From contig OX597831.1 of the NCBI GenBank assembly GCA_951406725.2, positions 59,768,001 to 59,832,000 of the forward strand: DNA of 64,000 bases. The letters are read 5' to 3'. Positions 26,856 through 53,619 of the stretch are shown piece after piece. Under the pieces are notes generated by a model. It was given only the letters and a program-made list of their open reading frames with translations. It was not told where the DNA came from and did no database searches. Both the position numbers and the translations under genes were made by a program. The DNA comes from Octopus vulgaris (lineage: Eukaryota). Each line of letters starts with the position of its first letter. Position 1 is the first letter of the stretch.

Positions 26856-27215
26856 ATGTGTATATATGAAGGGTAAGCCACTATGTGGTCGGCCGTATGC
26901 TAGAAATAGGAGAACACCTACGATCAAACTACAAAGAAAGGAATGTTCTCTAGAGGAAAATTCAGAGGACACAAGAAAGAAATTTCGTTCTGGTGACCGC
27001 TGAATTTCCCTCTAGAGAACATTCCTTTCTTTGTAGTTTGATCGTAGGTGATCTCCTTCTAGCATACAGCCGACCACATAGTGGCTTGCCCTTCATATAT
27101 ACACATGTATTAGAATTTTCTCTGATTTTTCAGATTTGTGTATGCTAGGCTACTGGTTTTAAATTGATATTAATTAAATTAATTTTCAATTTATCTCCCT
27201 CATTATTTAAAATTT
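26856..27215 (+). mobile_element. Fold-back PLE-like 3' relic between (TA)n tracts
   Basis: Inverted arms 26856-26965 and 27000-27106; tail contains CTAGGCTACTGGT. Confidence 0.75.
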
Positions 27216-27392
27216 ATATATATATATATATATATATATATATATATATATTACGGAGATGTACTTGCATAGCAAGTGATTTGATCTGAGATCGTGTGCT
27301 GAGACGAAAACAATTGCAGCGTGGAAGGTGTTTGTAAGCCATTTAAGAAACACACAAAAGCCGTTCGATTCACTTCAACATTTAAGTTTAAC

Positions 27393-27441
27393 TTGTCAAA
27401 ATATTTTCGTCGCTTTAAGACCGCGACCTGTTCACTGACAA
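27393..27441 (-). ncRNA. Hammerhead ribozyme, G3-C8 core variant, inside a (TA)n-flanked ~200-bp element (27251-27451)
   Basis: TTGTCA-GTGAACA-G-GTCGC-GGTCTTAAA-GCGAC-GAAA-ATAT-TT-TGACAA; 6-bp stem I, 5-bp stem II, palindromic AATATT. Confidence 0.72.
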
Positions 27442-29037
27442 AATTCCGTGCTATATATATATATATATATATATATATATATATATATATATGTGTGTGT
27501 GTGTGTGTGTGTGTGTGTAGGTACACATGTACGTGCACATAATCCCCTGGTGTATGCATACACAAATCAGGTGTTACAAATGAAAGAAAGAGAAAATAAC
27601 CATTAAGCATGGGGAGGAGGATAAGAACATTGGAGAAGAAGAAAAAGAAAGAGAGACAGGTAACTAGCGAAAGAAGGGAGAAAATGATAGGAACATAGAG
27701 TGCTACATAATGGCGCTAGAAAGTGGCAAGCAGAAATAGATACCTCATAAAGTATGCGCAACGAACGCACACATTAAATTACACACACACACACACACAC
27801 CTATATATAGATACATGTGACCGCGTGTGTACCGTTGGCGATTTTTTCCGCTGTCTTCCCTTCTCTGGATCTTTCCTTCTCCTATGTTTCCGAAACGTTA
27901 AACTCCTCCTTCTTTCCTTCTTTCCTGAGGGTCCAATAATACTATATTTGTTCCACGTCCTCGCGTTGTGTTTTTTTTTGTGCTTTCTTGTTTGGATTAA
28001 CTTTATATATATATATATATATATATATATATATATATATATATATATATATATATATATATATATATCAAAAGCCATATTTACCTTACTATGTGTGAAC
28101 GTGCGATCCCCGGTTTCCGAGGTCTACACTCTGACTACTCTTGGAGTTCTTGATGCGGTTCTGATACACAATAACAATATTGCAATTTCTTGTCTTCCCT
28201 CAGCAACTGTGTCATGTGAAGTGTGGAGAACCGCATCGTGGCCAATTGTCGTAGTGGTAACTGTATCCAGCTGAACAGCAGGACACAGAGAGTAAAGGAG
28301 ACAAAAAGAAAACGTTTCACTTCACAAATATAAGTACAGTAACGAATTATTCCTAATATTAATTCTTCTTTTTCACTTCTTTTTTTCAATTCTTCTTTTT
28401 TCAGTTCCAGATTTAGATTGTCTCATTTTTTCTCACTTTTGTCTCCTCTTTTCTCTTATCTAAATATAATCTCTCTTCTATCTCTTGTGCGGTTCGAAGA
28501 GAAAATAATATTTAACTGGCAATACTAAAGATTTGTGTCTTTAAATTTATTTCTCGTGTTCCTTTCAAGATTGAGATTTATTCATCTCATTTCTTTCATT
28601 TATAGTATGCATCCCATGACATTTTCTGGTTTTTGCTGTATTCCACTGGGCGCTAACGAATAGATAACGGATGTCGCTCTCGCCTAGACGAATCGTAACT
28701 TGGATTTTAGTATCCTTTGTTTGAAATATTCTAATATTCCCAGGCTATTTTACGCAAACACACACTTTATCATTCTGTAACAGCTATTTCACCACATAGT
28801 CGTTTATAAAGAAAAAATATTATTAATAGGCGTAGGAGTGGCTGTGTGGTAAGTAGCTTGCGTGGCACCTTGGGCAAGTGTCTTCTGTTACAGCCTCGGG
28901 CCGACCAAAACCTTGTGAGTGGATTTGGTACATGGAAACTGAAAGAAGTCCGTCGTATATATATGTATATATATATATATATATATATATATATATATAT
29001 ATATATATATATATATATATATATATATATATATATA

Positions 29038-29568
29038 TAAGTAAGGAAAAAAATTTTTTTTAAATGCAGAATGCTCAAATGAAAGAAAATTTTAATAAAA
29101 TGAGAAATTGATAAAATATATAAATATATATTTATTCAACCGGTTTTCGTCATTGTATGACTTGTCAAGAATATTTATGTTTTAAAAAGTTTTTTTAAAA
29201 ATTAGAAAGGGGAAAAAAAGAAAATTGCATTGTTTTTTGTAAAAGAATAATGATAAAAATGTACAAAAATTAAAAAATAAGTTCTCCGATACATTGTGAG
29301 TTCGTTGTGTATCTTGAGTTTTATGGTTGTTCACGAACAAATTACCTTGATGTGTTAAGATCCAAAGGGATTAAGAGCATGTGTTGTGTTGTTTAATTCA
29401 GCATACAATGACGAAAACCGGTTGAATAAATATATATTTATATATTTTATCAATTTCTCATTTTATTAAAATTTTCTTTCATTTGAGCATTCTGCATTTA
29501 AAAAAAAAATTTTCCTTACTTATCATTTCTCCACGTGCGGTCAACACAACCCCACCATTTATTGATCT
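29038..29568 (+). mobile_element. PLE 3' relic with inversion, nested in the SINE's (TA)n tract
   Basis: Inverted arms 29038-29159 and 29402-29522; spacer minus strand has decayed (W)IKQ..LNPFG(LN) PLE C-terminus-like residues; HHR-like motif. Confidence 0.75.
29133..29173 (-). ncRNA. Hammerhead-like motif, U3-A8 core variant
   Basis: TATTC-TTGACAA-GTCA-TACAA-TGAC-GAAA-ACCGGT-T-GAATA; one-nucleotide register anomaly at stem III/cleavage site. Confidence 0.55.
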
Positions 29569-29929
29569 ATATATATATATATATATATATATATATATAT
29601 ATATATATATATATATATATATATATATATATATATATATATATATATATATATATATATATGTATGTGTGTGTATATGTTTGTGTGTCTGTGTTTGTCT
29701 CCCCCCCCCAACATCGCTTGACAACGGATGCTGATGTGTTTACGTCCACGTAACTTAGCGGTTCGGCAAAAGAGACCGATAGAATAAGTACTAGGCTTAT
29801 GAAGAATAAGTCGTGGGGTCGATTTGCTCGACTAAAAGAAGCGGTGTTCCAGCATGGCCACAGTCAAATGACTGAAACAAATAAGTAGAGAGTAAAGTAA
29901 ATATCATTATTATCATTATTATTAATTTA

Positions 29930-30480
29930 AAGTTCTCAGCTTATTTTGCAAGGTATGATGGAACGTGTCAGCTGTCCACTGCCAGCAGACATATGTCACA
30001 TTTTTTCCCTGATTATGCTTCATGAACTCTGCAGAGAACATTGCAATTCCAAGCAATTATGCGTTTTGGAAGTGTTCTATATTTACACCAGTACGAATCA
30101 TTTTTACCCATGTTAGCAGTTGACAGCTGATACTCCCTAGCGTGCCAACTACTATTGGCATCATGTCCACGCTCTTCATTGATCTTCTCTGCGTATTTTG
30201 CCTCTTGAAATCGTCATAATTGGTAAGTTTTTCTTCTTTCACTTCCATCCTGGTGTCATCAAGACATGCTACCTCAATTATCAGGCAAGGTGCTTTCTTT
30301 TTTGCCTTCAGTATGTTTACAGAGAAACTTCATTCGGTCTCAGTACGAGAATGCAGTTCACCTCTACAAGCACTATAATCTTCAAATCGTTCATAATCGA
30401 CAGATGATAAATTGGCCCAGTATTTGTCTAGTTAGAAAAGAGGTCCCATCACTCTCAGAAACTTGGTAAGATGCTAGCAA
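29930..30480 (-). mobile_element. R4/Dong-like LINE 3' fragment (restriction-like endonuclease end)
   Basis: KEEKLTNYDDF...MMPIVVGTLGSI; ends near a short TAA-like tract. Confidence 0.75.
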
Positions 30481-51884: not shown

Positions 51885-52267
51885 TACAGGGTAAATGTTT
51901 TTTAATTTTCTCCTGGTTTACGGAATTGACGTTATTTTGCGGTTAAAGCTTTTGGCTGTTATTTCTAGTGGGTGAATGGCCTATTATGGCCGTTCCTTGA
52001 TTGTGATGTTGAACTTAAAAATGGTTTATGACTATTTAATTTTTTCCCACTAGGCCGCTGGTGGCAAAAGAATTCTACAAAATTTTTTTGCCACCCTATA
52101 TTGATTAATTATGAATTTTCTGGTTAATTCCGTAATGGAATCGGCGGCTTATATTTATTTGCTGCCGATAAATTTGGCGCGAGTGCGACGATTTGAAAAT
52201 TTTAGGTCAGATATTGACGAGGTAGCAACGAGAATGCCTCGTGAAAAATATCTGTTCCGGCTTGGCT

Positions 52268-52374
52268 ATTTCTTACTGATGAATCTAAGGGCCTATGGTA
52301 GATTGGCTTGATTTAATTTAATCAGGTTAGTTTTCCATTAAACAGTAGATGAAACGGTGCATCGTCTAAGAAAT
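52268..52374 (+). ncRNA. Type I hammerhead ribozyme, unit 9
   Basis: Same motif as unit 1. Confidence 0.9.
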
Positions 52375-52757
52375 TACAGGGTAAATGTTTTTTAATTTTC
52401 TCCTGGTTTACAGAATTGACGTTATTTTGCGGTTAAAGCTTTTGGCTGTTATTTCTAGTGGGTGAATGGCCTATTATGGCCGTTCCTTGATTGTGATGTT
52501 GAACTTAAAAATGGTTTATGACTATTTAATTTTTTCCCACTAGGCCGCTGGAGGCAAAAGAATTCTACAAAATTTTTTTGCAACCCTATATTGATTAATT
52601 ATGAATTTTCTGGTTAATTCCGTAATGGAATCGGCGGCTTATATTTATTTGCTGCCGATAAATTTGGCGCGAGTGCGACGATTTGAAAATTTTAGGTCAG
52701 ATATTGACGAGGTAGCAACGAGAATGCCTCGTGAAAAATATCTGTTCCGGCTTGGCT

Positions 52758-52864
52758 ATTTCTTACTGATGAATCTAAGGGCATATGGTAGATTGGCTTG
52801 ATTTAATTTAATCAGGTTAGTTTTCCATTAAACAGTAGATGAAACGGTGCATCGTCTAAGAAAT
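52758..52864 (+). ncRNA. Type I hammerhead ribozyme, unit 10
   Basis: Same motif; one substitution in the stem II insert. Confidence 0.9.
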
Positions 52865-53248
52865 TACAGGGTAAATGTTTTTTAATTTTCTCCTGGTTTA
52901 CGGAATTGACGTTATTTTGCGGTTAAATCTTTTGGCTGTTATTTCTAGTGGGTGAATGGTCTATTATGGCCGTTCCTTGATTGTGATGTTGAACTTAAAA
53001 ATGGTTTATGACTATTTAATTTTTTCCCACTAGGCCGCTGGTGGCAAAAAGAATTCTACAAACTTTTTTTGCCACCCTATATTGATTAATTATGAATTTT
53101 CTGGTTAATTCCGTAATGGAATCGGCGGCTTATATTTATTTGCTGCCGATAAATTTGGCGCGAGTGAGACGATTTGAAAATTTTAGGTCAGATATTGACG
53201 AGGTAGCAACGAGAATGCCTCGTGAAAAATATCTGTTCCGGCTTGGCT

Positions 53249-53355
53249 ATTTCTTACTGATGAATCTAAGGGCCTATGGTAGATTGGCTTGATTTAATTT
53301 AATCAGGTTAGTTTTCCATTAAACAGTAGATGAAACGGTGCATCGTCTAAGAAAT
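53249..53355 (+). ncRNA. Type I hammerhead ribozyme, unit 11
   Basis: Same motif as unit 1. Confidence 0.9.
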
Positions 53356-53619
53356 TACAGGGTAAATGTTTTTTAATTTTCTCCTGGTTTACGGAATTGA
53401 CGTTATTTTGCGGTTAAAGCTTTTGGCTGTTATTTCTAGTGGGTGAATGGCCTATTATGGCCGTTCCTTGATTGTGATGTTGAACTTAAAAATGGTTTAT
53501 GACTATTTAATTTTTTCCCACTAGGCCGCTGGTGGCAAAAGAATTCTACAAAATTTTTTTGCCACCCTATATTGATTAATTATATATATATATATATATA
53601 TATATATATATTATATGAG

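What the first reader, a model, noticed from the sequence alone, without database searches (positions are those of the whole stretch)
27059..53583. Covarying 3'-terminal RNA domain shared by three dissimilar elements
Seen: three elements end with the same architecture despite little other identity. Closing helix: CTAGCATACA/TGTATGCTAG (27059/27139), CTAGCATGTT/AATATGCTAG (33635/33714), CTAGTGGG/CCCACTAG (53436/53517). Each helix encloses a small hairpin (CCAC..GTGG, CCAC..GTGG, GGCC..GGCC) followed by CCTT. It is followed directly by GCYRCTGGT, then a hairpin, CCCT, and (TA)n about 10-15 nt later. GCYRCTG can also pair with an upstream TAGTGG (pseudoknot or switch). Inference: a cis signal recognised by the mobilising PLE reverse transcriptase, or an unrecognised structured RNA class. 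I do not recognise it as a described motif.
Basis: partly seen in the sequence, partly recalled or inferred. Interest (0 to 1): 0.78.

Follow-up and report, generated by a model that had tools for sequence, protein, structure and literature searches.

The report
RNA fold fixing two retrotransposition starts
All three sites are ends of small non-coding, hammerhead-carrying repeats whose very different families keep one shared pattern of complementary, co-changing segments around two fixed insertion endpoints, which likely forms an RNA fold that positions a Penelope-type reverse transcriptase to copy outward from both points and so would explain the inverted, tail-at-one-end shape of these insertions.

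Summary
The three elements are 3' pieces of three non-coding hammerhead monomer families (non-LTR retrozymes, about 470-590 nt) inserted in (TA)n. Eight families were read as full monomers; eleven representatives were aligned.

The domain is larger than first described. The GCYRC linker does not pair with TAGTGG. It pairs with a GYRGU segment about 26 nt upstream of the closing helix (36 of 40 cells paired, two double-changing pairs, 0/500 shuffles), giving a three-way junction.

New here: insertions end at two fixed places, one behind the 3' hairpin and one inside the junction (161 of 167 ends). Head-to-head insertions use one of each (32 of 37). This matches the Penelope tail-at-one-end pattern and the known internal start of reverse transcription.

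Best reading: the fold is a cis signal that positions two priming events by a Penelope-type enzyme. Against this, no autonomous Penelope-like family examined carries the domain as its own terminus, and no binding, cleavage or expression was shown. Rfam and nine literature searches found no description. The scan earlier noted a different structured RNA in coral Penelope-like repeats.

The parts
26852..26980 (-). Element 1 (family A): inverted 5' piece whose outer end is endpoint 2 (inside the junction), abutting (TA)n
   Evidence: (L100)
26985..27214 (+). Element 1: direct, 5'-truncated piece of the about 548-nt family A monomer, ending at endpoint 1 in (TA)n; the hammerhead is truncated away
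27033..27153 (+). Element 1 junction: P0 27033-27037/27149-27153, side hairpin Pa 27040-27053, P1 27059-27068/27139-27148, inner hairpin P2 with core 27074-27084, CCTT 27090-27093, endpoint 2 near 27105-27110, hairpin P2b before the 3' strand of P1
27155..27200 (+). Element 1 hairpin P3 and CCCT; endpoint 1 lies about 14 nt further on
33494..33587 (-). Element 2 (family B): inverted 5' piece ending at endpoint 2
33588..33770 (+). Element 2: direct piece of the about 530-nt family B monomer. P0 33606-33609/33725-33728, P1 33635-33644/33714-33723, P2 core 33651-33663, endpoint 2 near 33680-33686, P3 33730-33759, CCCT 33758-33761, endpoint 1 near 33770
48026..48066 (-). Element 3 (family C): 41-nt inverted 5' piece ending at endpoint 2 in (TA)n
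48067..53583 (+). Element 3: 11.3 head-to-tail copies of a 490-nt non-coding monomer, 99% identical
53249..53355 (+). Type I hammerhead motif in the last monomer: stem I 53249-53256/53348-53355, core 53257-53263 and 53332-53335, short stem III with a palindromic loop, predicted cut after 53347
   Evidence: Read against the core given in PMC8557442. Not an Rfam hit. The monomer's lowest-energy fold pairs the core otherwise.
53410..53583 (+). Element 3 domain: P0 53410-53414/53525-53529, Pa, P1 53436-53443/53517-53524, P2 53445-53466, endpoint 2 near 53478, P2b, P3 53531-53566, CCCT 53565-53568, endpoint 1 near 53580-53583. In internal copies the monomer runs on past this point.

Best explanation
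The three elements are non-coding hammerhead repeats (retrozymes) whose insertions end at two fixed points inside a shared set of covarying complementary segments, and these segments likely fold into an RNA that a Penelope-type reverse transcriptase/GIY-YIG enzyme binds in trans to prime copying at both points. Proposed steps: (1) A tandem array is transcribed and may be cut and circularised by its hammerhead (inferred from the literature). (2) The RNA folds into a P0/Pa/P1 three-way junction, an upper junction (P2, P2b) and hairpin P3 (covariation shown, fold predicted). (3) The enzyme nicks both strands of a (TA)n tract (target shown, nicking inferred). (4) One nick primes 8-20 nt behind P3-CCCU and the other primes inside the upper junction, about 40 nt before the end of P1 (endpoints shown, priming inferred). 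(5) The two cDNAs run in opposite directions and are joined head to head, giving an inverted 5' piece without, and a direct piece with, a 90-120 nt tail (product shown, joining inferred).
For: Ends: 161 of 167 distinct microsatellite-abutting ends in 8 families fall in two windows covering 5-9% of each monomer. Only 51 of 247 TA-like 3-mers lie in those windows, so target-like sequence alone does not pick them. 32 of 37 head-to-head insertions pair endpoint 1 with endpoint 2, one is 1+1, one 2+2, and three have an end off-window. p is about 2e-8 against independent choice, about 1e-6 allowing for selection on endpoint 1. All 9 pairs in L250-L289, fetched after the A-F endpoints were read, are 1+2. 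Public contigs also show (TA)n loose ends at 53475-53480.

Structure: P0 on a sequence-only MAFFT alignment of 11 representatives has 36/40 cells paired, pairs UA5/CG3 and GC6/AU4, 0/500 shuffles, slid controls 22-73%. P1 has 120/120 cells paired, 4 of 8 pairs with double changes and only G-U wobbles, which favours the hammerhead strand as RNA. P0 is 92% paired in 38 further model-aligned hits and appears in the lowest-energy fold of 10 of 12 representatives.

Context: monomers continue past endpoint 1 in tandem copies, i.e. an internal start, as shown in vitro for a lizard Penelope-like element with two start sites, two-strand AT-rich cleavage and a predicted dimer (PMC11167929). One locus joins a family D monomer at endpoint 1 to a 5'-truncated Penelope-like copy about 10 nt further on, with no (TA)n between (L290).
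Against: No autonomous family examined has the domain as its own terminus: several C-terminal GIY-YIG families including a young one with 781-aa frames, a young family with frames near 1,000 aa, and older divergent copies. The model hits in those loci that I read were separate retrozyme insertions; one (L434, 58 bits) was seen only as an alignment. None of 91 Penelope-like loci from other organisms matched (best E = 3.3). A signal absent from the enzyme's own RNA is unusual for SINE-like partnerships.

The families are homologous, so shared ancestry inflates covariation scores, and no tree-corrected test was run. The end windows were set from overlapping data, and loci were chosen by domain motifs. 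P2 and P3 vary in register and length (76-79%, 66% for P3). Family K lacks a clear P0 in its lowest-energy fold and family E refolds. The retrozyme-Penelope joins number only two, one ambiguous (L292), and can arise by later deletion. Nothing biochemical was shown.
Confidence: 0.6

Rival explanations
1. Passive exposure: the fold is real but serves RNA stability, circle packaging or nuclear retention. The enzyme binds non-specifically and primes at the two AU-rich single-stranded linkers that the fold happens to leave open.
For: Both endpoints lie in AU-rich unpaired stretches. The autonomous families examined lack the domain. Sequence conservation is limited to a few positions.
Against: About 80% of TA-like 3-mers lie outside the windows and almost no ends map there. 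Passive exposure does not predict that the two ends of one insertion use different sites in 32 of 34 classified pairs.
Confidence: 0.2
2. Inherited terminal repeat: the domain is the tail region of an autonomous Penelope-like family that is extinct or that I did not sample. The retrozyme families inherited it, and it works only with that partner.
For: Retrozymes derive from Penelope terminal repeats in frogs (10.64898/2026.07.22.740005). All monomers share one module order. Genome searches scored only 150 of 6,136, 117 of 17,749 and 101 of 14,386 candidates.
Against: Family C is very young (99% between copies), so its partner should have intact copies. The two young autonomous families found lack the domain. 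None of the motif-selected loci showed a Penelope frame that ends in the domain.
Confidence: 0.13
3. A second catalytic RNA: the domain is an unrecognised self-cleaving or ligating ribozyme that cuts the RNA at the two endpoints, so copying starts at true RNA ends.
For: It is a multi-junction fold in a ribozyme-carrying element, with no Rfam match.
Against: Endpoints spread over 10-20 nt within a family and have no conserved sequence. Tandem arrays of 11 copies need read-through. Invariant unpaired nucleotides are few. A hammerhead is already present.
Confidence: 0.04
4. DNA-level signal of a rolling-circle element (Helitron/DINE-like, recalled): sub-terminal inverted repeats, CTAG and a 3' hairpin act in single-stranded DNA.
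For: CTAG-bounded inverted arms, a terminal hairpin, tandem arrays and AT-rich targets.
Against: Ends are 45-70 nt past CTAG, not at it. Families H, H2, H3 and K lack CTAG at the end of P1. Every full monomer read has a hammerhead core. 5' truncation and inversion are the rule. P1 keeps G-U wobbles on one strand only.
Confidence: 0.03

Closest known systems
Metazoan non-LTR retrozymes (PMC7229834, discussion and passages read; 10.64898/2026.07.22.740005, parts 1-3 of 5 read)
   Same: Non-coding tandem monomers with a type I hammerhead, dispersed monomers and multimers, and proposed mobilisation by Penelope-like elements.
   Different: The parts I read describe no conserved structure other than the hammerhead, no fixed endpoints and no 5' inversions. 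The frog retrozymes match terminal repeats of autonomous elements, whereas here no such parent was found.
Penelope tail and internal initiation (Poseidon of Anolis, PMC11167929, main text parts 1-2 read; PMC8557442 and PMC3846280, passages read)
   Same: Two internal start sites, a tail at one end only, inverted 5' copies and AT-rich or (TA)n targets.
   Different: There the tail is 30-40 nt, lies in the start of the reading frame, and the protein-binding motif is only bracketed to 172 nt. Here the tail is 90-120 nt, non-coding, and bracketed by helices that covary across families.
SINE-LINE shared 3' stem-loops and the R2 3' UTR structure (recalled; R2 papers seen only as search listings)
   Same: An RNA fold just upstream of the start of reverse transcription that would license mobilisation in trans.
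   Different: Those act at the RNA's 3' end, with one start, and are shared with the autonomous partner. This one is internal, has two starts and was not found in a partner.
L1 twin priming (recalled; search listing only)
   Same: Head-to-head inversion from a second priming event at the other nick.
   Different: In L1 the second primer lands at variable places. Here the second place is fixed in each family.
Telomerase RNA three-way junction (CR4/5; recalled, search listing only)
   Same: A three-way junction near a template used by an enzyme of the telomerase/Penelope clade.
   Different: No sequence or Rfam match. As recalled, the short and long arms come in the opposite order. It is an analogy only.

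Membership tests
Metazoan non-LTR retrozyme | Short non-coding monomer in head-to-tail tandem | tested here: met
   490 nt x 11.3; A 548-549, B 508-537, D 468-480, F 473; H 564, K 552; H3 592; no meaningful open frame in the window elements
Metazoan non-LTR retrozyme | Type I hammerhead core in each monomer | tested here: met
   Core and stems read by eye in A, B, C, D, F, H, K, H3, some with one core change. My strict script pattern and Rfam did not report them.
Metazoan non-LTR retrozyme | Self-cleavage and accumulation as circular RNA | not testable with these tools
   Only contigs of runs guessed to be RNA were available
Metazoan non-LTR retrozyme | Derived from, or moved by, an autonomous Penelope-like element | tested here: inconclusive
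   Insertion shape fits; one clean join to a Penelope-like copy; no parent terminal repeat found
Penelope-like element (autonomous) | Reverse transcriptase plus GIY-YIG frame | tested here: not met
   None in the three elements; such frames exist elsewhere in the genome
Penelope-like insertion pattern | Inverted 5'-truncated copy, tail at one end only, (TA)n target | tested here: met
   All three window elements; 32 of 37 head-to-head pairs
Penelope-like insertion pattern | Retained intron spanning the start region | tested here: inconclusive
   A donor-like GT follows the hammerhead in A, B, C, D, F and H but not in K or H3; no splice joint from it in contigs
Helitron/DINE-like rolling-circle element | 3' end at CTRR after a small hairpin, fixed 5' end | tested here: not met
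   Ends lie 45-70 nt past CTAG or inside the junction; 5' ends are variable
Any Rfam RNA family | Match at the gathering score | tested here: not met
   0 hits in the window; best weak hits far below threshold
Telomerase RNA CR4/5 junction | Binds the reverse transcriptase's RNA-binding domain | not testable with these tools
   No binding test possible; no Rfam match

The most novel reading that the evidence does not exclude
A single RNA scaffold presents two template start sites to the two halves of a dimeric Penelope-type enzyme. Programmed twin priming is then the normal Penelope mechanism and explains the inverted terminal repeat and the one-sided tail. These retrozymes have evolved their own covarying scaffold to hijack enzymes whose own RNAs do not share its sequence, which would be a template-positioning RNA for the sister group of telomerase.
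Probability: 0.3. Interest if true: 0.82.

Novelty: new variant of a known kind. Interest (0 to 1): 0.64.

Why it matters
How Penelope-type reverse transcriptases, the closest relatives of telomerase, choose their RNA and their start point is open. The one in vitro study narrowed the binding motif to 172 nt without a structure, and the origin of the inverted repeat and one-sided tail is unexplained. Here many diverged families supply a natural mutational series: a defined fold of about 170-200 nt, with compensatory pairs and two mapped endpoints whose use is coupled within one insertion. That turns the question into a direct mutagenesis test. It also gives the clearest sequence-level sign in this data that animal retrozymes move by the Penelope mechanism. 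The elements are abundant (7,282 exact hits of one 13-mer in this genome).

Tried and rejected
TAGTGG pseudoknot or switch: rejected, because the positions are not equivalent and the segment is absent inside P1 in D and E.

Helitron/DINE reading: rejected (see rivals).

Search for an autonomous parent: GIY-YIG family search (30 loci plus 29 further stretches read), two divergent protein queries (50 loci plus 12 longer stretches), and translated comparison of motif-selected loci with the 781-aa protein. No family carried the domain as its terminus. L291 looked like a retrozyme-Penelope chimera but is a separate insertion.

The covariance model could not be run on the whole genome, only on fetched loci. 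Whether the ends of the autonomous families fold into a comparable shape without sequence likeness was not computed and stays open.

Other organisms: single-protein scans found nothing; alignment scans gave 91 loci, none with the domain. Family C words are held by runs labelled with five coded organisms, and four such runs were laid; this only shows close relatives.

Expression: no RNA holder was listed on record. Contigs of guessed-RNA runs cover the monomer but show no splice or circle joint that can be read, which is no evidence either way.

Intron idea (domain inside a retained intron): unsupported, since the donor-like site is not universal. A protein tree did not finish, so the clades of the autonomous families are not assigned. 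No solved structure matches the 781-aa protein.

Literature: nine searches (searches were answered; one search was a format error) showed no description of this domain. Repbase/Dfam entries, subscription journals, figure contents (including Fig. S2C of PMC11167929) and the preprint's supplements could not be seen.
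Full report
Setting. The window is G000:C18:59768001-59832000 of a 2.8-Gb animal genome rich in simple repeats. A cephalopod host is my guess from recalled repeat likeness and was not tested.

1. Observation. The 13-mer CTAGGCYRCTGGT occurs 14 times in the window by the near-identical 12-mer scan, all on the + strand, 12 of them in the array of element 3. It occurs 7,282 times in the genome against 26 for the reversed control. 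By hand count of the 86 distinct hits listed, 44 are followed by (TA)4 or more within 35-67 nt, 26 run on into the next monomer, and 16 end otherwise (several in other simple repeats). Rfam has no match.

2. What the elements are. Element 3 is 11.3 copies of a 490-nt unit with a 41-nt inverted 5' piece. Elements 1 and 2 are short direct pieces with inverted 5' pieces. DNA searches show that they belong to families with full monomers of 548-549 nt (A) and 508-537 nt (B). Further families emerged from the motif loci (D, E, F) and from the first covariance model and an upstream motif (G, H, H2, H3, K and others). Monomers share an order: endpoint 1, hairpin, a GC-rich element, hammerhead, the domain, endpoint 1 again. 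BLAST likeness between families is patchy: C-F 72% over the whole unit, A-B only 95 nt, H-K-H3 about 145 nt, and none reported between these groups or for D. The hammerhead was read by eye against the core given in PMC8557442. It has a short stem III with a palindromic loop, the kind said to work as a dimer (PMC4209133, part 1 read). My strict pattern missed it and the monomeric fold pairs its core otherwise. These are non-LTR retrozymes in the sense of PMC7229834.

3. The fold. On the MAFFT alignment of 15 copies from six families, P1 is paired in 120 of 120 cells, four of eight pairs change on both sides, and one-sided changes are G-U wobbles. Comparing families showed that the linker after P1 pairs with a segment 26-28 nt upstream of P1: GCGG/CCGC in C and F, GUGG/CCAC in B, D, E and G, GUAG/CUAC in A, H2 and H3, and GCAG/CUGC in H. 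On a sequence-only alignment of 11 representatives, whose 5' boundaries I had set at that segment, 36 of 40 cells pair, two of four pairs change on both sides, and 0 of 500 shuffles reach the score. The count of double-changing pairs itself is not above shuffles (421/500), and K and H3 are misaligned there. The helix appears in the lowest-energy fold of 10 of 12 representatives and is 92% paired in 38 model-aligned hits from other loci, an alignment that leans towards the model. The result is a nested three-way junction (P0, Pa, P1), an upper junction (P2, a CCU linker, P2b) and hairpin P3 followed by CCCU. It is not a pseudoknot. Relatedness was reduced by taking one copy per family but was not modelled.

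4. Two endpoints. Mapping ends that abut (TA)n onto each monomer gave two clusters per family. On all loci then held, 92 ends fell at endpoint 1 (8-20 nt behind P3-CCCU), 69 at endpoint 2 (inside the upper junction, about 40 nt before the end of P1) and 6 elsewhere. The windows cover 5-9% of a monomer and hold 51 of 247 TA-like 3-mers. Of 37 head-to-head insertions, 32 combine endpoints 1 and 2, one is 1+1, one 2+2 and three have an off-window end (p). All three window elements are 1+2. The nine pairs from L250-L289, fetched, are all 1+2; among seven pairs from loci chosen by the upstream motif, four are 1+2, one is 1+1 and two have an off-window end with endpoint 2. Contigs of public runs show (TA)n loose ends at 53475-53480 in five runs, and one at 53093. 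Caveats: the windows were set from overlapping data and the loci were chosen by domain motifs.

5. Link to Penelope-like elements. PMC11167929 shows in vitro that a Penelope-like enzyme cleaves both strands at AT-rich DNA and starts at two internal RNA sites that bound the tail. It predicts a dimer and leaves the binding motif undefined within 172 nt. PMC8557442 and PMC3846280 describe inverted 5' copies and a 30-40 nt tail at one end only. The retrozyme insertions repeat this pattern with a longer tail. The genome has young autonomous families inserted in (TA)n: one with 781-aa frames, whose copies end at two places about 38 nt apart, and one with frames near 1,000 aa. Neither these nor older copies carry the domain as their terminus, nor do 91 Penelope-like loci from other organisms. 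In L290 a family D monomer ending at endpoint 1 is followed about 10 nt later, without (TA)n, by a 5'-truncated relative of the 781-aa family (89% nucleotide identity). This fits a template switch by one enzyme but is a single case; L292 is similar but ambiguous, and L291 is not a chimera.

6. Mechanism. Shown: non-coding hammerhead monomers, covarying helices, two endpoints, their coupling, and the (TA)n target. Inferred: expression, folding in the cell, binding by a Penelope-type enzyme, two-strand nicking, twin priming and joining. I put 0.6 on the positioning-signal reading, 0.2 on passive exposure, 0.13 on an unsampled parent element with the same mechanism, and the rest on a second ribozyme or a DNA signal.

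7. Novelty. Retrozymes, their Penelope link, the tail and internal initiation are published. I found no description of this domain, of fixed paired endpoints in retrozymes, or of a covarying structure around Penelope start sites in eight answered literature searches, in passages of PMC13282606 on an octopus repeat annotation, or in the scan's notes by sequence or place. Repeat databases, figures and some supplements were not visible. Verdict: a new variant of a known kind, with a directly testable mechanism; interest 0.64.

Noticed in passing
L182-L185, L187, L206, L218, L220, L230 and others: About half of the 28,491 hits to the upstream 15-mer (judged from 70 loci read) belong to an old dispersed repeat. 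It shares the Pa-to-P1 5' segment and sometimes a P2-like hairpin, but not P3 or a (TA)n end; in L220 and L230 it forms a 107-nt tandem. It may be an ancient relative or an unrelated SINE.
   Followed up: partly
L290 (G000:C1:13171500-13179500, - strand) and L292: Retrozyme joined to a 5'-truncated Penelope-like copy with no microsatellite between: candidate template-switch chimeras.
   Followed up: partly
L091, L092 and many places: Young Penelope-like family with an upstream frame, a 781-aa RT/GIY-YIG frame, a terminal repeat with CCAAT/CRE-like and TATA-like boxes, a donor site, a degenerate hammerhead-like core and two ends about 38 nt apart.
   Followed up: partly
L436-L441: Second young Penelope-like family with a unit of about 6.3 kb, a CA-rich 3' region of about 3 kb, and a minimal hammerhead about 100 nt before its end.
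   Followed up: partly
L196, L202, L249 monomers: Families H, K and H3 carry GC-box- and E-box-like motifs just past endpoint 1, a possible internal promoter.
   Followed up: no
window 53080-53180 and equivalents in A, B, D, F: A second conserved block past endpoint 1 (hairpin, GC-rich palindrome, then a TTTGAAA motif) is shared by families A-F.
   Followed up: no
window 37741-38409 (+) and 44515-45006 (+): Open frames that look like fragments of LINE-type retrotransposons (by eye).
   Followed up: no
window 26100-26240 and 12021-12394: Copies of an abundant SINE-like repeat also seen in many fetched loci; the second place is a 183-nt tandem pair.
   Followed up: no
window 53760-54000 (+): Degraded frame resembling a Tc1/mariner transposase right after element 3 (by eye).
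   Followed up: no
L375-L385; P0031, P0041, P0060, P0072: Penelope-like elements sit in assemblies labelled as bacterial genomes, probably animal host contamination.
   Followed up: no
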